A program made the translations under genes and the position numbers. The notes under the pieces are model-generated. The model did no database searches. It saw only the letters and a program-made list of their open reading frames with translations, and had not been told where the DNA came from. This document shows, piece by piece, positions 11,605 through 34,230 of a stretch of DNA of 34,506 nt; position 1 is the stretch's first letter; the number at the start of each line of letters is the position of its first letter. The stretch comes from a virus (taxonomy: Duplodnaviria > Caudoviricetes): IMG/VR virus record IMGVR_UViG_3300036798_000078, positions 1 through 34,506 of that record. The stretch is one strand, 5' to 3'.

Positions 11605-12483
11605 ATGCCGCTCGCAATAGAGCTATTTACCAACCCTCCGACGACGGCGGTAACCGTTACCGCTGGTGGTACGACCGCGCCAACGGCAGGTACGACGGAG
11701 ACGTGGACTCTGGCTGGTGGCTATGCGCAGTTGCCACAGGTTAGCAACGCAGCTGTGCCGCCTACTCAGTTTCATTTCTACGACGCCTCGTTCCCTAGCG
11801 AGATAATGCTAGGGACTAACCTCAGTGGGGCTACTCTTAGTGTCACACGCGGAGTCGAGGGTGCTACTGTCGCGCATCCGCTTGCCACTAACCTTCCGGT
11901 ACAGACGATATCGGCCGGAGTAATGGGATTGTTTCAGCAGCAGTCTCCCTCTAAGATACCGGCCAGCCAGGGAGACGCGACAACTACTACAGTCACTACC
12001 GTCTCTACAACTACGTTCTACCCGCTTAGCAAGGCGTGGGCTATACCGGCCAACGATGCGAATGTCGCTACGATATATGAACTGACAGTGTTCGGCAATG
12101 GTACGTGGGCTTCGACAGCGTGCTCCCTCAACTTCCAGGTTAGCGCATTCGGTGTAGTTGTTGCTAAGATTCAGGTAGGCAGTACTATGCTTCCTGCATC
12201 TGCTAACTTCTGCTGGGGCCTAACTACCAAGATCGTTGTCATAAACAATACCTCGTCTGGATCGATAGCTGCCGAGTCAGATGGCGCTATATCGAACTAT
12301 GCTCAGAACCTGAGTGTGACTGGCGGTTCAAGCGCCAACTCGACCGCAGGCCTAGCTGGTCAGTCTGCTACTACATCGGCTAACGTGGCTGCTGGTGGCA
12401 CCTTGCAGCTTACCGCTCAGTGGAACACTGCTGCAGGTTCTGTCTCGTCGTTCGGTTCCTTGCTCGACCGTAAAGGTCAGTGA
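11605..12483 (+). CDS. Thr/Ala/Ser-rich virion fibre/adhesin-like protein
   Basis: EIM...LSVTRGVEG..AH motif of phage fibre N-termini; beta-rich C-terminus. Confidence 0.6.
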   Translation: MPLAIELFTNPPTTAVTVTAGGTTAPTAGTTETWTLAGGYAQLPQVSNAAVPPTQFHFYDASFPSEIMLGTNLSGATLSVTRGVEGATVAHPLATNLPVQTISAGVMGLFQQQSPSKIPASQGDATTTTVTTVSTTTFYPLSKAWAIPANDANVATIYELTVFGNGTWASTACSLNFQVSAFGVVVAKIQVGSTMLPASANFCWGLTTKIVVINNTSSGSIAAESDGAISNYAQNLSVTGGSSANSTAGLAGQSATTSANVAAGGTLQLTAQWNTAAGSVSSFGSLLDRKGQ

Positions 12484-14843
12484 TGGTAGGAGTTGCTCCC
12501 GAGCCGCTTGCTGTCACACCATATACGATTAAGACTCAGGTCAATAATACTGCGACGACTAGCTGGACCACTACGGCTGCTACTGGCCCAGCTCCTATTG
12601 GCGATGCAGTAGTTATCTTCGTTTCGTCCGGCACATCAGGCAATACTGTTACTGGTATTTCCGACAGTGTGGGTAATACATATACTCTTGGGCCTGCTCT
12701 TGCTACGTGGCCGTATCAGTGGGCATACTATTCGCTCGCCATTACTCACGCTATCACTACATCGACGACATTTACGGTCACCTTTTCTGCTGCGGCAGTT
12801 GGATCCATCATCGTACGCGGCTGCCCGAGCGTCACCGCCCTTGATGCTCATCCGGCCGTCGTAGGCGCGACCAGCGCTGCTGCGGCTTCCAACCCGACTG
12901 GGGTCTTGGCCCAGGCATCCGAGTGGGTCATCGGATGTATTGTCGACGGCGCCTCTGGCGGTTCGCCAACGGCACTGAGCATCCCTTCGTTCGTCAGCCA
13001 GCAGATTACCGGCGACCCGTGGTACACTGGGTGTGACGAGATCGTTAGCTCGACCGCCAGCCAGACGCTCAGCGCGACCCTGGCCGCCTCGATTGTCTGG
13101 TCCGCGTCTATTCTTTCGTTCACGCTGACCACAGCTGCACCGGTATATTATACTCCCGTCAGTGCTGTACCAGGCGTTGCTATACCAGGACGGTTCTCTC
13201 CCGGAAGCTACGTCAACATTCCGGTGGCGTTTGCTGACTCGGGTACTGGCTCAGATGCCATAGTCGTAGCTGAGGGCATTCCTGTCACCGACTCGGGTAC
13301 TGGTACTGACTCGATAGCTGTCAATGTCGAGGCTCTGGCCCTAGCTGACTCGGGCACCGGTACCGATTCTATAGCGGTACTGACTAGAGCTGCAGCGCTA
13401 GCTGACTCCGGAAGCGGTGCTGACTCGGTAGCAGTGCTAGCCAAGACTGCATCGTTGGCTGATGCAGGTGCTGGCGTCGACTCGATAGTAGTGTCGCAGG
13501 CAGGAACAGTTTCGCTAACTGACGCTGGTGCTGGTAGCGATTCGATTACTACGACAGTTGCTGCTCCTATCGCGGACTCTGGTTCTGGCACTGACTCGAT
13601 TTCTGTAGTTGCGACTGTTCCGCTTGCTGACGCAGGTACTGGAGCTGATTCGATAGCGCAGGCGGGGACTACTGTACTGTCCGACTCAGGTACTGGTGCA
13701 GATAGCATTTCCGTAAGCGTAACCTTGTCACTAGCAGACTCCGGTATTGGTTCAGAGTCAGTAGCCTCTGCTGTAGTTCTTAGTCTCGCCGACTCTGGTG
13801 CTGGAACGGACAGTCTAGGTGGATCGTTTACCAGATCGCTAGCTGACTCTGGCGCAGGTACAGACTCCATATCGACTGCTATATCTCCACAGCTGACGGA
13901 TGCTGGCACAGGCGTAGATGTCCTAGGCGGAAGCTTTACCAAGGCACTAGCTGACTCCGGTACTGGTGCAGACGCACTGGTGATTCCGGGTACTATAGTT
14001 CCGCTGTCTGATTCCGGTGCTGGTACTGACTCGATTACTGTAGCGGTAACCGTTAGCCTGGGAGACTCCGGTACTGGTGCCGATGTACTGGGCGGTAGCT
14101 ACACCAAGAGTCTAGGCGATACTGGTACAGCTGCGGATACTATAGTTCTTGCTCACGCAGTAGCGCTGCTGGATCAAGGCTCTGGCATTGATACCATAGT
14201 TGTAGTCAGGTCCATATCGCTCGTTAGTTCCGGTACTGCGACTGACTCCATATCGGTATCCGTCTTTACACCAACCGGCGATGTGCGTACGCCTCTCCAG
14301 CTGAGTGGAGTCTTTGCGGATGAGAACCTGCTTGGTGGCTCGATTGTTGATGCGTTGGGTCTTGGCGGCACGATTATTGATGGCAATACGTTGTCAGGTG
14401 CTATTGTTGATGGCAACGTTCTGGCTGGTATGATTGGGCGCGCTGTAATTCTGTCTGGTACTATGGTTGTACAGGTCGTCGATAGCGTTCTGGAGGAGTG
14501 GACAATGCAAGAGGTAGACATTACGCTGGCAGAGTTCAACGACGAGACTCTTGCCCTCACGATCACAGCTAGTGGCGTTCCTCTCAACATTACTGGCATG
14601 GAGATCGACATGCTCCTCAAGACTCAGTCTGGCGTCTCGGACATAGATCCGTCGACTCTCAAGCTGTCGACGACTACGGGCGAGATCACCATTACCGACG
14701 GCCCTGCAGGACAAGCTACCGTCGCTATAGCTTCCGTCAACCTACAGCCTACTCCGCCTTTCGGATTCCATCGAGTGGACATTCTAGAGGGCGGCAAGCG
14801 GAACACTGCGCTGTTTGGTACGGTCTCGATTACACCGTTGTGA
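12480..14843 (+). CDS. Large repeat-containing virion protein with C-terminal BppU-like Ig domain
   Basis: N-terminal beta domain, 19 repeats of L.D.G.G.D.I, then ~10-aa L.G.I.D repeats, then PLNITG...GEITITDG..GQATV. Confidence 0.7.
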   Translation: MMVGVAPEPLAVTPYTIKTQVNNTATTSWTTTAATGPAPIGDAVVIFVSSGTSGNTVTGISDSVGNTYTLGPALATWPYQWAYYSLAITHAITTSTTFTVTFSAAAVGSIIVRGCPSVTALDAHPAVVGATSAAAASNPTGVLAQASEWVIGCIVDGASGGSPTALSIPSFVSQQITGDPWYTGCDEIVSSTASQTLSATLAASIVWSASILSFTLTTAAPVYYTPVSAVPGVAIPGRFSPGSYVNIPVAFADSGTGSDAIVVAEGIPVTDSGTGTDSIAVNVEALALADSGTGTDSIAVLTRAAALADSGSGADSVAVLAKTASLADAGAGVDSIVVSQAGTVSLTDAGAGSDSITTTVAAPIADSGSGTDSISVVATVPLADAGTGADSIAQAGTTVLSDSGTGADSISVSVTLSLADSGIGSESVASAVVLSLADSGAGTDSLGGSFTRSLADSGAGTDSISTAISPQLTDAGTGVDVLGGSFTKALADSGTGADALVIPGTIVPLSDSGAGTDSITVAVTVSLGDSGTGADVLGGSYTKSLGDTGTAADTIVLAHAVALLDQGSGIDTIVVVRSISLVSSGTATDSISVSVFTPTGDVRTPLQLSGVFADENLLGGSIVDALGLGGTIIDGNTLSGAIVDGNVLAGMIGRAVILSGTMVVQVVDSVLEEWTMQEVDITLAEFNDETLALTITASGVPLNITGMEIDMLLKTQSGVSDIDPSTLKLSTTTGEITITDGPAGQATVAIASVNLQPTPPFGFHRVDILEGGKRNTALFGTVSITPL
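13230..14265 (+). repeat. 19 tandem 18-20-codon coding repeats (consensus LADSGTGTDSI.V)
   Basis: Counted in the translation, from FADSGTGSDAI to LVSSGTATDSI; boundaries approximate. Confidence 0.9.
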
Positions 14844-14864
14844 CACAATGTATCAGAAAGCCCT

Positions 14865-14908
14865 GGAGGCACCTGAAGACTTCATTATATAATAGACAAG
14901 ATAGGAGC
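14865..14908 (+). promoter_or_regulatory. Internal promoter and SD for head genes
   Basis: TATAAT at 14888-14893 in AT-rich gap, GAGGC 17 bp upstream, AGGAG SD. Confidence 0.55.
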
Positions 14909-14912
14909 ACGC

Positions 14913-15242
14913 ATGTCGGTATACGCACCCTCAGGGTCAGGCAACGTTCACGTCGACACAGTCATGGGCGCTGGAGGTAAGAAGAAAGTGGCTGCGAAAG
15001 GTGGCGCCGCAAAGAAGGGTGGCGCTAAGAAGGGCATGGGATTCAAGGCCGCAGCAGCCTCTGCTGCTAAGTCGGCAGGCGTATCTCCCCAGCAGGGTGC
15101 AGCGATAGTGGCTGCAGCATCGCAGAAGGCTTCACCGAAGGCCAGGAAGGCTAACCCCAACCTTGCCAAGGTGGCTCGTCCTGGTACTAAGAAGACAGCT
15201 GGCGGCAAGTTCGTCAAGAAGGCTTCAGGAGGCAAGAAGTGA
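14913..15242 (+). CDS. Lys/Ala-rich basic protein with MCP-like N-terminal peptide
   Basis: 21 Lys + 2 Arg versus 1 Asp; first 18 aa match the MCP N-terminus at 14 positions. Confidence 0.85.
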   Translation: MSVYAPSGSGNVHVDTVMGAGGKKKVAAKGGAAKKGGAKKGMGFKAAAASAAKSAGVSPQQGAAIVAAASQKASPKARKANPNLAKVARPGTKKTAGGKFVKKASGGKK

Positions 15243-16378
15243 GCCGCTATGGATACTGGGTCGATCTAGTAGGGCAGCAGCTCGGCGACAGTTCATGGGT
15301 TCACGCGCTGCCCATTGGCGAGTTCGAGCATCCGGTGTACGGCAAGATGAACTTCACACCGGAGCGTGTTCAGAAGTTCGCCGCAAGCGTCAAGGGTCGT
15401 GTTCGAGGCATCGATCTTGATGTCGACTACGACCACAAGGAGCACGGTGGTCAGGCTGCAGGATGGGTCAGAGACGCCGATGTGCGTCCCGATGGCCTGT
15501 ACCTTCAGGTGGAGTGGACCCCACGTGCATCCGAGGCGATCAAGAATCGGGAGTACAGGTACTTCAGTCCGGAGTTCGACGACACTTGGAAGGACGCTGG
15601 TGGCACCGAGCACCAGGACGTCTTGTTCGGTGGCGCCCTCACGAACCGTCCGTTCCTGAAGGACCTCCTTCCCGTCAACTTGTCGGAGATCACTACCAAC
15701 GCCAAGAAGGCAAACGAAGGAGGTCAAATGGGACCTGAGCAGATCAGGGAGCTGCTCGGTCTCGGGACGGACGCCACGGACGAGCAGGTCACGGCGAAGA
15801 TCGCGGAGCTCAAGGCCGGAGCGCCGGCGCCTCCTCCGCCATCTCCGACGCCTCCCGCTCCAACACCGCCCGAGACGGAGCCTGTACTCACAGGCGCAGC
15901 TCTGAACGAAGCTATCGCCAAGGCGCTTGGCGAGCACCCCATGCTGGTGGAGCTCAGAAGGAGCCTCGACGCCACGCGTGCTGCGCAGCAGTTCGCCGAG
16001 ACACGTCAGCGTCTCGAGCGTCTGCAGGTCAACCAGGGCGGCAGGCAGTTCGTACTACCGCCAGCCGTCATTGATGCGGTCGCAGAAGGCTCATCGCTCA
16101 GCGATCCTGTGGCGATGTCCCAGAAGTTCGTCGACGCCATCGAGGCGTTCGGCCGTGTCGGGTACGTCGAGCTCGGTGAACGTGGTCGCACGCGCAATGG
16201 GACCGAGAAGACCGCAAGCCAGCAGCTGTCCGAACTCGTCACCGCCGCTCAGACTCAGCACATGGCGGCTACGGGCAAGCAGCTCTCCACGACCAATGCG
16301 ATCGCACAGGTCGTTCGTGCTAACCCCGAGCTGTACCTGGCTTATCGCGAGGACAGCTACTCAGGAAGGGAGGAGTAG
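15239..16378 (+). CDS. Capsid maturation protease/scaffold (Mu gpI-like)
   Basis: VDYDH, AAGWV, VEWTPRA..AI...EYRYFSPEF, GGALTNRPFL. Confidence 0.9.
   Translation: MSRYGYWVDLVGQQLGDSSWVHALPIGEFEHPVYGKMNFTPERVQKFAASVKGRVRGIDLDVDYDHKEHGGQAAGWVRDADVRPDGLYLQVEWTPRASEAIKNREYRYFSPEFDDTWKDAGGTEHQDVLFGGALTNRPFLKDLLPVNLSEITTNAKKANEGGQMGPEQIRELLGLGTDATDEQVTAKIAELKAGAPAPPPPSPTPPAPTPPETEPVLTGAALNEAIAKALGEHPMLVELRRSLDATRAAQQFAETRQRLERLQVNQGGRQFVLPPAVIDAVAEGSSLSDPVAMSQKFVDAIEAFGRVGYVELGERGRTRNGTEKTASQQLSELVTAAQTQHMAATGKQLSTTNAIAQVVRANPELYLAYREDSYSGREE
15728..16378 (+). CDS. Scaffolding protein from internal in-frame start (Mu gpZ-like)
   Basis: GAAGGAGGTCAAATG inside protease gene; IRELLGLGTDATDEQV. Confidence 0.7.
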   Translation: MGPEQIRELLGLGTDATDEQVTAKIAELKAGAPAPPPPSPTPPAPTPPETEPVLTGAALNEAIAKALGEHPMLVELRRSLDATRAAQQFAETRQRLERLQVNQGGRQFVLPPAVIDAVAEGSSLSDPVAMSQKFVDAIEAFGRVGYVELGERGRTRNGTEKTASQQLSELVTAAQTQHMAATGKQLSTTNAIAQVVRANPELYLAYREDSYSGREE

Positions 16379-16381
16379 CCG

Positions 16382-16897
16382 ATGCCTGGCATGGATCAGA
16401 TTCTCTCCAAGGCCTTCCTGGCGACAGGCGGCTCCGTCTCATACCCGCAGTGGTCAGTCGTACAGCAGGTAGCAGCGGTCGGTCTTGTTCCTGCGGCCGT
16501 TCAGCTCGCACCGGTCACGGCAGGTACCGCTGCTGGCAGCGTCGGCATCATCGGAGTGTGCGCCGAGCTTCTCGACGCAACCAAGACGGTGACTGGCAAG
16601 GCCTTCGTCAACATCGCGATCGACGGCAACTGCAAGTGCATCTGGGACGGTACGACTGGTGGTGCTACTCCGTGGGCTACCGTCGGTGTCGCACCTGGAA
16701 TCGGTGTCTACGCCGTACCCTCAGCGACCACACCTGGTCGTGTCAAGTTCATTCCTGCGACAGGCAGCGGCGGTCTAGGCTACGGAGCGATCGGCATGCT
16801 GATCTCGCAGCCCGGTAGTCCGCTACCTGTGTTTGGCGCAGGAGCCGCCGCAGGCGACCTGTTCGATATCACCCTACTGGTCGGCTCGAAGGTCTGA
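16382..16897 (+). CDS. Capsid decoration/cement protein (putative)
   Basis: Gly/Ala-rich beta protein between scaffold and MCP ending AAAGDLFDITL. Confidence 0.65.
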   Translation: MPGMDQILSKAFLATGGSVSYPQWSVVQQVAAVGLVPAAVQLAPVTAGTAAGSVGIIGVCAELLDATKTVTGKAFVNIAIDGNCKCIWDGTTGGATPWATVGVAPGIGVYAVPSATTPGRVKFIPATGSGGLGYGAIGMLISQPGSPLPVFGAGAAAGDLFDITLLVGSKV

Positions 16898-16910: not shown

Positions 16911-18038
16911 ATGGCAGTTTATGCCCCAACTGGTTCGGGCAACGTCCACGTTGATGTCGTTCTGACACAGATCAGCATTGCGTGGCCGAACGAGGGACTG
17001 GTCGGCAACGTCCTCTTCCCGCCTGTGCCCGTCGCCAAGCAGTCCAACAAGTACTACATCTTCCAAGGTCGTGAGGGCTGGTATCCGGCTCTCGACGATG
17101 CCAGAGCACCAGGTACCGAGGCCAACGAGGTGCCAGGTCTGACGGTCAGCATCGGATCGTACTACGCTCAGGAGCATGCGCTCCAGATCGCGGTCACCGA
17201 CGAAGAACGGGAGAACGCTGACAGTCCGCTGTCACCCGACGTCGACGGTACGGAGATGCTGGCGTCCAGGATCTCGCTGGGCAAGGAGTATCGCATCTAC
17301 AACCTGGTTACGACCGCAGCAAACTTCAACGCCTCGCTCACTCAGGCGCTGTCCGGCACCTCGAGCGGCGGCTACGGTGCGCAGTGGGACCTCGCGTCCA
17401 CGACGCCTGTCAGGGACATCAGGACCTGCATGCGAATGGTTCACAAGCTGGCATTCCTGCAGCCGAACCAAGCGATCATTCCCTACAAGGTCATGTCGGC
17501 CTTGGAGGACAACCAGGACCTGATCAACCGCATCCAGTACGTCGAGCGTGCCATTCTGACGCCCGACCTGGTCGCGAGCCTGCTCAGCCTGGACAACGTC
17601 GTCGTGCCCGGCTTCGGCATCGCGACTAACAACCCAGGTCAGACGCTGGCACTGTCGTACCTCTGGAACATGGAGGTCCTGCTCGCCTACGCACCTCCGC
17701 GTCCAGGTCTCAAGGTGCCTGCCTTTGCCTACCAGTTCACCTGGGGCTTCGGTGGTGGAGGCGGTGGCGGCCTGAACTTCGGGTCGGGCGCATTCTCAGG
17801 CCAGGGCATCGACGACGGCGGAGGTCCGAGTGCGCTCAACCCCTCCAGCGAGGCCGACGGCGCGTCCAACAACCTGCAGGGCGGTATCGTCGACAGGTGG
17901 CGTGAAGAGCGTCGCGCCTCCGACGTCATTCGGTTCCGGCAGCGGTACGACCTGGAGCTGATCGGACTCGACGGCAACGGGAAGTCGATCTGCGGCTTCC
18001 TATTCACCAACGTCCTGTCCGCGGCCTTCGTGGGCTAA
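16911..18038 (+). CDS. Major capsid protein (HK97 fold)
   Basis: ATG at 16911 after GAGGAGG; HVDVVLTQISI, LFPPVPVAKQS.KY, RAPGTEANEV, GFLFTNV; position and size. Confidence 0.9.
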   Translation: MAVYAPTGSGNVHVDVVLTQISIAWPNEGLVGNVLFPPVPVAKQSNKYYIFQGREGWYPALDDARAPGTEANEVPGLTVSIGSYYAQEHALQIAVTDEERENADSPLSPDVDGTEMLASRISLGKEYRIYNLVTTAANFNASLTQALSGTSSGGYGAQWDLASTTPVRDIRTCMRMVHKLAFLQPNQAIIPYKVMSALEDNQDLINRIQYVERAILTPDLVASLLSLDNVVVPGFGIATNNPGQTLALSYLWNMEVLLAYAPPRPGLKVPAFAYQFTWGFGGGGGGGLNFGSGAFSGQGIDDGGGPSALNPSSEADGASNNLQGGIVDRWREERRASDVIRFRQRYDLELIGLDGNGKSICGFLFTNVLSAAFVG

Positions 18039-31560: not shown

Positions 31561-31867
31561 CTATTTCCTTCTTCAGTTGTTCGGCCTCTGCCTGTAGCTC
31601 TTCTATTCGTTGTTCGATTACAGCGAGCCGGGCCTGTGGAGATTTGCGATCGCCTCGGGTCCGGAGTTCGAGGTTGGCTGGGTCTAGGTTAGTCCGATCG
31701 TTGTCGATGAACTTGACAAACTCGTTCGGTTCGAGTCGTCTACCGAGCTTCTCCTCCATGAGGAGGGTGTGAGTGGCTACGAAGCCGCGACCTTCGACCT
31801 TGGTATGGTGGTAGCCGTTCTGGTTGGTAAAGGTGTCGCCTACTGCTGCTGCTTGACCTCTAGGCAT
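31547..31867 (-). CDS. Degenerate HNH-like protein with C-terminal coiled coil
   Basis: TAATG overlap; GY...H.LLME.KLGRRL...EFVKFIDNDRTNLDPANLEL. Confidence 0.75.
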   Translation of the reverse strand: MPRGQAAAVGDTFTNQNGYHHTKVEGRGFVATHTLLMEEKLGRRLEPNEFVKFIDNDRTNLDPANLELRTRGDRKSPQARLAVIEQRIEELQAEAEQLKKEIANAN

Positions 31868-34230
31868 TACAACTGTCCCCAATCTGTTCCGGTTTTGATG
31901 TCGATGTCAATGTTCACATAGTCGCCCACAACTTGTTGTCCGGACTTGATCATGTAGTAGCTGACTAGGTCGGACACTCTGTCTACGTCGGTCTTGCGAC
32001 ACTCGACTATGAGGTTGTCGTGAACGATGTTGCGTACGTACCCTAGGCCCTTGAGAGCTGGCCTGACCCACGTGAATGCTTGAAGGCAAATGTCTGAGGC
32101 AATCGATTGTGGCTGGAAGGCTAGGGCCTCGTTCATAACCTCGTGCTTGTTCTCTTTGGTGATGAGCCAGAACCTGCGATGTCTACCGAACGGTGTCGTG
32201 AGGTCTTTTCCAGCGAGGACATCTCGACGTGTTTGTTCGCGATAGTCCACGATGTTTGGTATGACGCCGAAGAACGCGCGCATAGCTCGTTGAGCTTCCG
32301 CAACGGACATCCCATGCTCTTCGGCTATGGACTTGGCTTCGCGTCCGTAGCCTAGGCCATAGAAGTAAGCTTTGACTCGAATACGTAGTTCGTACATCTG
32401 CCACTTGTCTAGCTTTGACGTATCGCCGTATAGTACTGGCGTCAGCTCATCGAACAGGTCTCGAGTAGGATCGTTAAAGATGTCTCGGAGATAGTCCTCT
32501 TGTGCTAGCCAAGTCAGAATGCGTGCTTCAATTTGCTTGTAGTCAGCGTTCACGAACACGTTGTCAGGGTGTACAGGAACGAACTGCTTCCTGATTCGCC
32601 AGCCTCGGGTGATGTTCTGGAGGTTGGGATTCCTGCTGCTGAGCCTGCCTGTAGTTGTTCCGTGGAGCAAGAACGTTGGGAAGACTCTTCCCTGGTGCGT
32701 TCGTCTGCGAATGCCTTTGACGTAGGTGCCATACGACTTAGCGTCGAGTCGGTGCTCTGCTAGTGCACATAGGAAGTCGTAGTACTCACCCCACGGCTCT
32801 TCGCATCTCGAGATCAGTAGTGCAATGACTTCCTTGTCAGTGCAAGGTCGCCATTCGCCTGACTGGTTTCTCTTTCTCGGTACTGTTATGCCAAAGCGCT
32901 TCGTAAGTACGTCTACGATCTGTAGAGGTGAGTTCGGGTTGAAGTCGCGTCTGCGAGATGTTATCTGCATGTCGCGTCGGAGCATTGCAAGTCTGCGACC
33001 GTAGAACTCTGCAAGATCGTCGTTGTACTTAAGGTCTATGCCGATACCGTTCAGCTCTACGTACATGAGCTCGTTCGACGCTCGAACTAGGAAGTCGTGT
33101 AGCGCTCGGAGGTCTGGCGTCATTAGTTGTGTGAACAGTTCATACAGCGCGAAAGTTGCTGCACAGTCGTAGGCGTTATATCTGTACAGAACGTCTCTGG
33201 GGATAACGCCGTAGCCTCTGCCTCGCTGTAGGTATCGTTTGATGTCATCGTCGTATCGTGGAGTACCTAGCAACTCGACTGCCAGGTACTTCAGACCATG
33301 GACGCCTCTCCGTTCGTCCAAGCAGTACGACGCAAGCATCGTGTCGAACCAGAGTCTGATAGCACCGATTCGATGGAACAAGCCACCAAGATCGAACTTT
33401 CCGTTCTGTGCAATGATACGGTTGTGAGAACGAAGATATTGTCCCAGACGTGACATGAAACGAGTATCGTTACATACCGCCTCACCGAAGACGACGACCT
33501 TGCCGGGAGCGTAACCAACTCCAATGCATAGTAGGTAGTGACGTGACGCATGTTCGAAGCTTACATCCTTATCTACGTCGGTCTCGATGTCTACCGTGAT
33601 TTCGGTAAGTGGTAGCTCGTCGACGACTTTGCAGGCTGTTTCTACGTCGTCGACGACTGTGATGACGGGCTCGGTCCACTCGCTCGATGGCCTTACGAGC
33701 TTGCCGAAGTCGTTAACGATGGAAGGGAAGAACGAGTCTCCCTTTGGTCTGAGACAGGCTGCCGGATGAAACGTTGGTATGACGTGAAGACCAAGTTCGT
33801 CCGACCATCGTGGCGGCCCGATCCTGAGCCGAGTGATACCATCCTTACTTCCCAGCAGCGATCGTGAGGCCGAGTTACCCAGAGCCACAACCGTATCGAC
33901 ACCTCGGTCTTGTAGCTCCTGAACGAGACGGGGCCTACAGCAATGAATCGCGTTCGCGGAGGGTGTCGCGTTGTCGGGTGGACGGCATAGGCAGGCATTT
34001 GTGAGGAGGGTATTGGCCCTAGGGATTTGGTAGTGCTCGAGTATTTTGTCGAGGAGTCTACCTGAGACCCCCACAAAAGGGTGTCCCAGTCGAGCTTCAT
34101 TTGCTCCCGGCGCTTCTCCAACCACTGCAAGATTCGTTTGCGCCGGTCCATCGGATGGGACGAATCGTCCAGCATCATACAGATCACACCTCTCGCACTC
34201 TGCGTCAGGATGCTTGCGTACTCTGTCCAT
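31867..34230 (-). CDS. DNA polymerase family A with N-terminal family-4-type uracil-DNA glycosylase domain
   Basis: CERC, GEAPGANE, HPFVG, CRPP, HPAACL (UDG); DIET, QNGKFD, YNAYD (3'-5' exo); TGRLSSRNPNLQNI, DYKQIE, KAYFYGLGYG, VHD (pol). Confidence 0.95.
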   Translation of the reverse strand: MDRVRKHPDAECERCDLYDAGRFVPSDGPAQTNLAVVGEAPGANEARLGHPFVGVSGRLLDKILEHYQIPRANTLLTNACLCRPPDNATPSANAIHCCRPRLVQELQDRGVDTVVALGNSASRSLLGSKDGITRLRIGPPRWSDELGLHVIPTFHPAACLRPKGDSFFPSIVNDFGKLVRPSSEWTEPVITVVDDVETACKVVDELPLTEITVDIETDVDKDVSFEHASRHYLLCIGVGYAPGKVVVFGEAVCNDTRFMSRLGQYLRSHNRIIAQNGKFDLGGLFHRIGAIRLWFDTMLASYCLDERRGVHGLKYLAVELLGTPRYDDDIKRYLQRGRGYGVIPRDVLYRYNAYDCAATFALYELFTQLMTPDLRALHDFLVRASNELMYVELNGIGIDLKYNDDLAEFYGRRLAMLRRDMQITSRRRDFNPNSPLQIVDVLTKRFGITVPRKRNQSGEWRPCTDKEVIALLISRCEEPWGEYYDFLCALAEHRLDAKSYGTYVKGIRRRTHQGRVFPTFLLHGTTTGRLSSRNPNLQNITRGWRIRKQFVPVHPDNVFVNADYKQIEARILTWLAQEDYLRDIFNDPTRDLFDELTPVLYGDTSKLDKWQMYELRIRVKAYFYGLGYGREAKSIAEEHGMSVAEAQRAMRAFFGVIPNIVDYREQTRRDVLAGKDLTTPFGRHRRFWLITKENKHEVMNEALAFQPQSIASDICLQAFTWVRPALKGLGYVRNIVHDNLIVECRKTDVDRVSDLVSYYMIKSGQQVVGDYVNIDIDIKTGTDWGQL

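What the first reader, a model, noticed from the sequence alone, without database searches (positions are those of the whole stretch)
14913..15242. Histone-like basic protein carrying a selected copy of the major capsid protein N-terminus
Seen: MSVYAPSGSGNVHVDTVM versus MCP (16911) MAVYAPTGSGNVHVDVVL, 14/18 identical. Of the 13 identical non-Met residues, 10 use different codons, so the match is kept at protein level and is not a fresh DNA duplication. The rest is Lys/Ala/Gly-rich (21 K, 2 R, no acidic residue) around a short helical core. The gene heads the protease-capsid unit behind its own TATAAT. Inference: the MCP N-arm mimic is a capsid-addressing tag that occupies vacant N-arm sites (portal vertex or symmetry mismatches) or binds scaffold/protease, placing a DNA-neutralising tail inside the head. 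It could alternatively regulate assembly. It may be usable as a cargo-loading tag.
Basis: partly seen in the sequence, partly recalled or inferred. Interest (0 to 1): 0.9.

Follow-up and report, generated by a model that had tools for sequence, protein, structure and literature searches.

The report
Capsid-arm tag on rare protein isoform
A small, very basic phage protein begins with a conserved copy of the first 18 residues of the phage's own capsid protein, and a conserved second start signal just behind the copy predicts that only a minority of molecules carry it, so it likely acts as a 'dock onto the capsid' label for a few copies of a likely DNA-binding head protein.

Summary
Observation confirmed: 14/18 identity with the MCP N-terminus, 10 of 13 shared residues recoded; the next best window scores 8/18. 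The tag is in 23 of 23 close relatives whose contig covers the slot, is under purifying selection (pN 0.13, pS 0.80) and is portable: it heads 23 clusters of basic tails and, in one lineage, the head protease. It is optional (2 of 11 near-complete records). A Shine-Dalgarno plus GTG/ATG sits right behind the tag in 29 of 33 genes (0 of 67 MCP genes) and pairs more strongly than the first start in 28 of 33. The gene therefore likely makes a minor tagged and a major tagless form; the protease fusion is built the same way. Best reading (0.5): the copy docks a few molecules in scarce MCP N-arm sites, probably at the portal vertex. No paper found. This scan has reported the same tag on at least six other genomes, one note already proposing the rare long form.

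The parts
14838..14848 (+). Conserved upstream element (GT...ACA), about 45 nt before the -10 box; possible activator site (inferred)
   Evidence: Sequence; consensus line over 26 tagged genes aligned on TATAAT
14888..14893 (+). TATAAT, putative -10 box; no consensus -35
   Evidence: within 60 nt of the start in 22 of 28 tagged genes
14903..14907 (+). First, weaker Shine-Dalgarno (AGGAG), -6.5 kcal/mol
14913..15242 (+). Long, tagged form of the basic protein, 109 aa; predicted minority product
   Evidence: no Pfam or PHROG family
14913..14966 (+). The tag: copy of MCP residues 1-18
14973..14978 (+). Second, stronger Shine-Dalgarno (GGAGGT) hidden in the Gly-Gly linker codons, -10.6 kcal/mol
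14988..15242 (+). Short, tagless form from GTG (Val26), 84 aa; predicted majority product
   Evidence: Nested start conserved in 29 of 33 tagged genes
15024..15182 (+). Small helical core (residues 38-90), also a widespread stand-alone 52-65 aa phage protein
15239..16378 (+). Mu-like head protease I; its GTG overlaps the stop of the small gene
   Evidence: PF10123 E 3e-32, phrog_328
15728..16378 (+). Predicted nested scaffold product of the protease gene (strong SD plus ATG)
   Evidence: -12.8 kcal/mol; the likeness to Mu I/Z is recalled
16382..16897 (+). 171-aa gene before MCP, probable decoration/cement protein (inferred from position only)
   Evidence: No family
16911..18038 (+). Major capsid protein, HK97 fold; residues 1-18 (16911-16964) are the source of the tag
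   Evidence: phrog_1005 E 2.4e-58; 3bjq by sequence and fold; residues 1-25 unplaced in the monomer model, pLDDT under 50

Best explanation
The gene encodes a Lys-rich protein whose first 18 residues copy the capsid protein's N-terminal arm; two nested start signals are predicted to give a minor tagged and a major tagless form, and the tagged form likely docks in a scarce binding site for the MCP N-arm, which would anchor a few copies of a likely DNA-binding tail to the head. Shown: the copy, its selection at protein level, its portability, and the conservation of both start signals. Inferred: (1) both starts are used, the second more; (2) the tip of the arm (Tyr4, Pro6, Gly8, Gly10; a 10-residue version exists) plugs into the pocket that an MCP arm would fill; (3) the free pockets are those left where the portal replaces a penton, five per head, which would explain why a weak start is enough and why the tag is optional; (4) the basic tail contacts DNA near the shell or portal, while the tagless form goes with the DNA unanchored; (5) in the lineage with the protease fusion the same device anchors a few protease molecules.
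For: Tag in 23 of 23 loci with MCP at 72% identity or more whose contig covers the slot (4 more are cut). pN 0.13 against pS 0.80 over codons 3-15 of 28 tags. A 19-position profile over 1.84 billion representatives gives 28 hits: 23 tag plus basic tail (net +0.17 to +0.38 per residue; only 4 with the helical core), 4 MCP pieces, 1 unrelated repeat. A 27-residue copy heads the protease in G001-G003. Nested SD plus start in 29 of 33 tagged genes, against 5 of 154 control windows and 0 of 67 MCP genes; the first Val after the tag is GTG in 26 of 27 against 44 of 144 elsewhere. The second SD is the stronger in 28 of 33. The protease fusion has -4.9 at the tag and -12.3 at its normal start. Some tagged forms begin at TTG or ATC. 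In every gene from our loci the tag stands at the N-terminus, and five MCP variants with an extra leader join it through Gly-Gly exactly before the arm, so the position of the mature N-terminus seems to matter. Tags score higher against their own MCP than shuffled (0 of 20,000). Precedents for extra proteins that make up for the missing penton and touch DNA: P74-26 PVP (PMC12407722, passages) and HFTV1 PIP (10.1101/2024.12.09.627619, passages).
Against: No binding, virion or expression data. No capsid structure of this MCP family exists to show where the arm binds (only the crystal 3bjq), so 'portal vertex' is a guess from stoichiometry. In T4 the N-arm moves to the outer surface on expansion (PMC9958956, passages), so the tail need not end up inside. 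The tag is absent from 9 of 11 near-complete records and from 5 of 5 cultured distant relatives (within up to 12 kb). Tagless basic genes fill the same slot in 7 of 34 loci, and the core stands alone in unrelated phages. Co-variation is not significant on independent pairs (position 5: 4 pairs, p 0.125-0.25; position 7: none), and L009 and L468 disagree. SD pairing energy is only a proxy for initiation rate.
Confidence: 0.5

Rival explanations
1. Loading signal read by the scaffold or protease core: the copy is bound by the scaffold as MCP arms are, and carries cargo into the forming procapsid in the manner of the T4 capsid targeting sequence, without a final site on the shell.
For: Scaffold binds the MCP N-arm in 80alpha and phi29 procapsids (PMC5744158, PMC11922011, passages). 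The tag is fused to the protease in one lineage, and the gene abuts the protease-scaffold gene. T4 CTS is an N-terminal address on basic internal proteins (PMC3012670, PMC9958956, passages).
Against: Scaffold is abundant, so a bulk loading signal would not need to be confined to a weakly started form. In 80alpha the scaffold binds the arm helix, while the shortest tag here keeps only the 10-residue tip.
Confidence: 0.2
2. Assembly regulator: the tagged form competes with MCP arms to delay nucleation or expansion, or to block aberrant shells, and is kept scarce because it is dominant-negative; it need not remain in the virion.
For: Weak first start throughout; first gene of the head unit in most relatives; competition between peptides for one capsid pocket has a precedent in adenovirus VI/VII (10.1101/857581, abstract).
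Against: A regulator does not need a long basic tail, yet 23 of 23 non-MCP tag clusters have one; the tag is dispensable in sister phages.
Confidence: 0.12
3. Outer-surface or neck-side decoration: the copy binds an exterior arm site after expansion and displays a basic tail that sticks to cell walls or soil particles.
For: N-arms move outward on expansion in T4 and phi29; in P74-26 the arm pairs with the decoration protein outside.
Against: The same tag sits on the head protease, which by established knowledge works inside; tagless forms and tagless homologues could not attach this way.
Confidence: 0.08
4. Decoy or shared recognition motif for a host factor (protease, chaperone or capsid-sensing defence protein), like the Prp motif shared by 80alpha capsid, scaffold and ribosomal L27.
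For: A shared N-terminal motif on capsid and scaffold, read by a host protease, is known (PMC5744158, passages).
Against: No host protein begins with the motif: 46 of 47 pattern matches in 185,579 genomes are unrelated frames and 1 is a phage MCP; none among the 28 profile hits. The second half of the tag (VHxDxxL) is conserved in MCPs of cultured phages of Arthrobacter, Rhizobium, Roseobacter and Brevibacillus, as expected of a structural arm and not of a host-specific leader. A decoy should be abundant, not minor.
Confidence: 0.07
5. Relic of a duplicated MCP gene start, kept for RNA-level reasons or by drift.
For: A stronger start lies downstream, so the basic protein can be made without the tag; one shortened tag exists.
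Against: Synonymous sites are near saturation while residues are held (pS 0.80, pN 0.13); Tyr4, Gly8, Gly10, Val12 and His13 are invariant in 28 of 28 tags.
Confidence: 0.03

Closest known systems
Phage T4 capsid targeting sequence (CTS) of internal proteins IPII/IPIII (PMC3012670, PMC9958956; passages read)
   Same: Short conserved N-terminal peptide on otherwise diverse small basic proteins; candidate address for the head; lysines of T4 internal proteins contact packaged DNA.
   Different: CTS is described as conserved in IPII/IPIII and not in other core proteins, and it targets the scaffolding core. Here the peptide is a copy of the shell protein's own arm, is confined to a predicted minority form by nested starts, and its targeting is untested.
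Staphylococcus phage 80alpha shared N-terminal Prp motif on capsid and scaffold (PMC5744158; passages read)
   Same: The same N-terminal motif on the capsid protein and on a second head protein.
   Different: That motif is a removable leader shared with host L27 and cut by a host protease. Here the motif runs into a family-wide N-arm segment, no host carrier was found, and the second carriers are basic tails or a long form of the protease.
Portal-vertex accessory proteins: P74-26 PVP and HFTV1 PIP (PMC12407722; 10.1101/2024.12.09.627619; passages read)
   Same: Five-copy proteins that make up for contacts lost with the penton; PVP's N-arm joins an MCP sheet inside and a lysine contacts DNA.
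   Different: They are folded proteins not reported as copies of MCP; this protein is mostly low-complexity and its location is only inferred.
Actinophage capsid accessory proteins Patience/Adjutor gp4 and Douge gp113 (PMC11965321 passages; PMC13033339 passages and section 8)
   Same: Small proteins that bind between MCP subunits; gp4 is disordered alone and folds on the capsid.
   Different: Present in many copies over the lattice, not described as copies of the MCP arm; no sequence match to any PDB chain.
Adenovirus core protein VII and protein VI in the hexon cavity (10.1101/857581; abstract read)
   Same: A genome-condensing protein occupies a capsid pocket in competition with another protein.
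   Different: Unrelated virus and fold; the competitors are two minor proteins, not the capsid protein's own arm.

Membership tests
T4-type CTS internal proteins | Conserved N-terminal peptide on diverse small basic proteins | tested here: met
   23 clusters of tag plus basic tail
T4-type CTS internal proteins | Peptide private to the cargo proteins, not shared with other head proteins | tested here: not met
   The peptide is the MCP's own N-terminus; CTS description from PMC9958956
T4-type CTS internal proteins | Directs foreign proteins into the prohead and is removed by the head protease | not testable with these tools
   Needs fusion and virion analysis
Prp-type shared host-cleaved leader (80alpha) | Motif shared with a host protein N-terminus | tested here: inconclusive
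   No host carrier among 47 exact pattern matches or 28 profile hits; a diverged host motif would be missed
Prp-type shared host-cleaved leader (80alpha) | Leader lies before the structural arm and is removed | tested here: inconclusive
   Residues 12-25 match a motif kept in 5 of 5 cultured distant MCPs, which argues for a structural arm; cleavage itself was not testable
Portal-vertex accessory proteins (PVP, PIP) | Five copies at the portal aperture | not testable with these tools
   Only a predicted low copy number
Portal-vertex accessory proteins (PVP, PIP) | Sequence or fold homology | tested here: inconclusive
   No such chain listed
Histones, HU/IHF or HMG-box DNA-binding proteins | Family profile or fold match | tested here: inconclusive
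   No Pfam hit; HMG boxes at Z 3.6 or less (rmsd 3.0, 46 aligned) and IHF at Z 3.2, all under the trust level; HU rows under the bar
HK97-fold major capsid protein (source gene 16911) | Profile and fold match to HK97-type capsid proteins | tested here: met
   phrog_1005; Foldseek 3bjq E 2e-17, then YSD1, HFTV1, Chi, P23-45 capsids
Mu-like protease I (gene 15239) | PF10123 above the curated cut-off | tested here: met
   112.9 bits against 25.2

The most novel reading that the evidence does not exclude
These phages have built a general anchoring device from their own capsid arm: a 10-27 residue copy placed before the normal start of any head protein, behind a deliberately weak start, yields just enough tagged molecules to fill the arm sites left empty at the portal vertex, tethering a DNA-binding tail or the maturation protease there. 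It would be a natural, site-specific, copy-number-limited cargo tag for HK97-type capsids and a new answer to how the portal vertex is completed.
Probability: 0.3. Interest if true: 0.9.

Novelty: new variant of a known kind. Interest (0 to 1): 0.74.

Why it matters
How tailed phages place minor proteins inside the head, and how the shell makes up for the penton lost at the portal, are answered for only a few phages. Here a peptide of 10-18 residues with a known natural counterpart (the MCP arm), natural fusions to two kinds of cargo and a built-in dose control makes both questions directly testable with a four-gene head operon in a laboratory strain. If it works as inferred it is also a short genetic handle for loading a few copies of a protein at one vertex of a capsid. 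It also points to a large unannotated class of small basic phage head proteins that occur with or without the tag.

Tried and rejected
Complex prediction of the tag with arm-less MCP was not available (queue full; nothing was folded), so binding is untested. The MCP monomer model leaves residues 1-25 unplaced and says nothing on where the arm binds. No Pfam or PHROG family for the small protein or its core; no meaningful PDB sequence match; Foldseek none; VIA-align best Z 3.6; Atlas feature hits 0.87, under its bar. No match for the small protein or the stand-alone core among 50,697 cultured phage records (the low-complexity filter is on), and no copy of the own MCP N-terminus within up to 12 kb in 5 of 5 cultured distant relatives (one record had only about 4 kb downstream). 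The genome scan gave no prophage or host. Sequencing runs: no RNA holder listed; one DNA run that may be the source. Start at Met18 rejected (no SD). Fresh DNA duplication or ongoing gene conversion rejected (tag against own MCP pS 0.76, against others 0.79). Strict co-evolution not established. The careful MCP tree did not finish; quick trees were used. My first reading of L405 as tagless was wrong: it has a 10-residue tag. Literature: ten searches found no description of an MCP-arm copy on another protein, aimed at it, returned 0 papers. The library lacks most subscription papers, and no supplements were opened.

Full report
Setting. The window is a 34.5-kb linear virus record, estimated 53% complete, of a tailed phage with terminase, Mu-like portal, Mu-like protease I, an HK97-fold MCP (phrog_1005; nearest structure 3bjq), tail tube, tape measure and endolysin. 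No cultured phage is closer than about 33% in the MCP and no host was identified.

The 109-aa ORF at 14913 shares 14 of its first 18 residues with the MCP at 16911; 10 of 13 shared non-Met residues are recoded; third codon positions agree in 4 of 17; the best of the other six-frame windows reaches 8 of 18. Residues 19-109 have 21 K, 2 R and no acidic residue. TATAAT and AGGAG precede the start, and the stop overlaps the protease GTG.

It is conserved and selected. Of 80 MCP loci fetched, 27 have 72% identity or more; 4 are cut before the slot and 23 of the other 23 (18 distinct proteins) carry the tagged gene just before the protease. Tagged genes also occur in the distant clade (MCP about 48% identical), before the protease or moved upstream of the terminase. 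Over 28 tag-MCP pairs, codons 3-15 of the tags give pS 0.80 and pN 0.13, and Tyr4, Gly8, Gly10, Val12 and His13 are invariant. TATAAT lies within 60 nt in 22 of 28.

It is modular and optional. A 19-position profile over 1.84 billion representatives gave 28 hits: 23 tag-plus-basic-tail proteins of 47-192 aa (five are proteins from my own loci; only 4 have the helical core), 4 MCP pieces and 1 unrelated repeat protein. In G001-G003, three near-identical records and so one lineage, a 27-residue copy plus a small two-cysteine module heads the protease. G024 has only the first 10 residues before a Lys-rich tail. Conversely the helical core is a stand-alone 52-65 aa protein in unrelated phages (240 stretches); of 16 such loci whose chosen neighbours (36 proteins) were scanned, 13 have a capsid, portal or terminase gene within about 4 kb. 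In 34 MCP loci without a tag in the locus, 7 by my reading have a tagless Lys-rich gene in the same slot (the script's looser count, which admits Arg-rich frames, was 9). Of 40 records searched whole, 7 have a second match, 4 of them known positives put in as controls; among the 11 at least 90% complete, 2 do, one being a control. Five cultured distant relatives have no copy nearby, though all keep the VHxD/NxxLT(N)ISV-type segment in their MCP or most of it.

A nested start sits behind the tag. Of 34 rows, one (L534, an MCP piece) was dropped; 29 of the remaining 33 have a Shine-Dalgarno plus in-frame GTG/ATG at codons 22-27, against 5 of 154 control windows in the same genes and 0 of 67 MCP genes. 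The first Val after the tag is GTG in 26 of 27 (the exception is the dropped row) against 44 of 144 other Val codons, and the Gly-Gly linker is spelled GGAGG or AGGAG in 29 of 56 pairs against 15 of 99 further down. These genes are kin, so the p-values printed there overstate independence, but third positions in the adjacent tag are near saturation. The second site pairs more strongly with the anti-SD in 28 of 33; in the window -10.6 against -6.5 kcal/mol, and Met18 has none. The protease fusion repeats the design: -4.9 at the tag, -12.3 at Met74. Inference: the tag is carried by a minority long form.

Does the tag track its own MCP? Tags score higher against their own MCP than in shuffles (1739 against 1688 +/- 13; 0 of 20,000; within clades p 0.007 and 0.026). 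Position 5 is Asn in both in 10, in neither in 17, and discordant in 1; L364 shares a rare Ala9 with its MCP. With kinship counted there are only 4 independent pairs (3.5 same way, 0 opposite, p 0.125-0.25), position 7 shows nothing, and L468, found later, disagrees at both positions. This fits two peptides constrained by one site, but does not prove it.

Structure. The MCP model (pTM 0.72) leaves residues 1-25 unplaced, as expected for an arm that folds on neighbours, though the alignment was shallow. The core is predicted as four short helices without a trustworthy fold match. No complex could be predicted. Five MCP variants carry an extra leader joined by Gly-Gly exactly before the arm; if it is cut there (inferred), the mature N-terminus equals that of the leaderless MCPs and of the tag.

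Mechanism. The best reading (0.5) is that the copy docks where an MCP arm docks, at scarce sites, most simply the five left empty where the portal replaces a penton, and anchors a few basic tails, or a few protease molecules, while the tagless form goes with the DNA. Rivals: scaffold-read loading signal (0.2), assembly regulator (0.12), outer decoration (0.08), host-factor motif or decoy (0.07), relic (0.03). Shown are the sequence facts above; use of the starts, binding, location and DNA contact are all inferred.

Comparison. It works like the T4 capsid targeting sequence but is not a member: CTS is private to internal proteins (PMC9958956, PMC3012670; passages). The 80alpha motif is a host-cut leader (PMC5744158; passages). 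P74-26 PVP and HFTV1 PIP complete the portal vertex with folded proteins (passages). Patience gp4 and Douge gp113 bind across the lattice (passages; section 8). Adenovirus VII competes for a hexon pocket (abstract). Phi29 N-arm behaviour is from passages. The Mu I/Z parallel is recalled. No supplements were opened. Ten searches found no report of an MCP-arm copy on another protein. Earlier notes of this scan describe the same tag on at least six other genomes; they are leads, not support.

Verdict. A real, selected, portable copy of the capsid arm on a predicted minority isoform; new variant of a capsid-addressing peptide; interest 0.74.

Noticed in passing
L041/L042, L044, L049 (L406:8088-8190), L213, L439: MCP N-termini: Five MCP variants carry an extra leader of about 25-35 residues with a conserved Gly-x-Arg-x-Asp/Asn-Gly-x-Pro-Ile motif ending in Gly-Gly exactly before the normal arm; looks like a cleavable double-glycine leader; no Pfam or PHROG hit.
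   Followed up: partly
L361:6359-6502 (-); Thermobifida phage P1312, L540:6001-6141: The two-cysteine module between tag and protease (phrog_3684, E 1.6e-4) matches an unannotated gap between two genes of the cultured phage P1312 (45% identity, E 1e-3).
   Followed up: partly
L111, L112, L117, L129, L140, L155 around the core gene: Runs of 4-10 adjacent 40-130 aa very basic genes (phrog_2423, 4689, 7595, 34011, 6437, 14910) in structural regions of unrelated phages; possibly a broad class of virion DNA-binding proteins.
   Followed up: partly
window 17754-17873 (MCP residues 282-321): Gly-rich, low-confidence insertion of about 40 residues in the MCP, present in the close clade (372-396 aa) and absent from the distant ones (319-336 aa).
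   Followed up: no
window 14838-14848: A GT...ACA element about 37-48 nt before the TATAAT is conserved among relatives in place of a -35 box; candidate late-activator site.
   Followed up: partly
window 12480-14843: 787-aa protein between portal and head operon with many tandem 19-20 residue repeats built on Asp-Ser-Gly-Thr-Gly; weak phrog_1696 and phrog_1084 hits.
   Followed up: no
window 31867-34230 (-): Family A DNA polymerase with an N-terminal uracil-DNA-glycosylase-superfamily domain and a 3'-5' exonuclease.
   Followed up: no
L366 (G007), L365, L367: The tagged form appears to start at ATC or TTG in this subclade while the nested GTG has a strong SD.
   Followed up: partly
L404:4323-6779: Terminase large subunit of 819 aa whose match to the window's terminase is split by about 330 residues; possible intein.
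   Followed up: no
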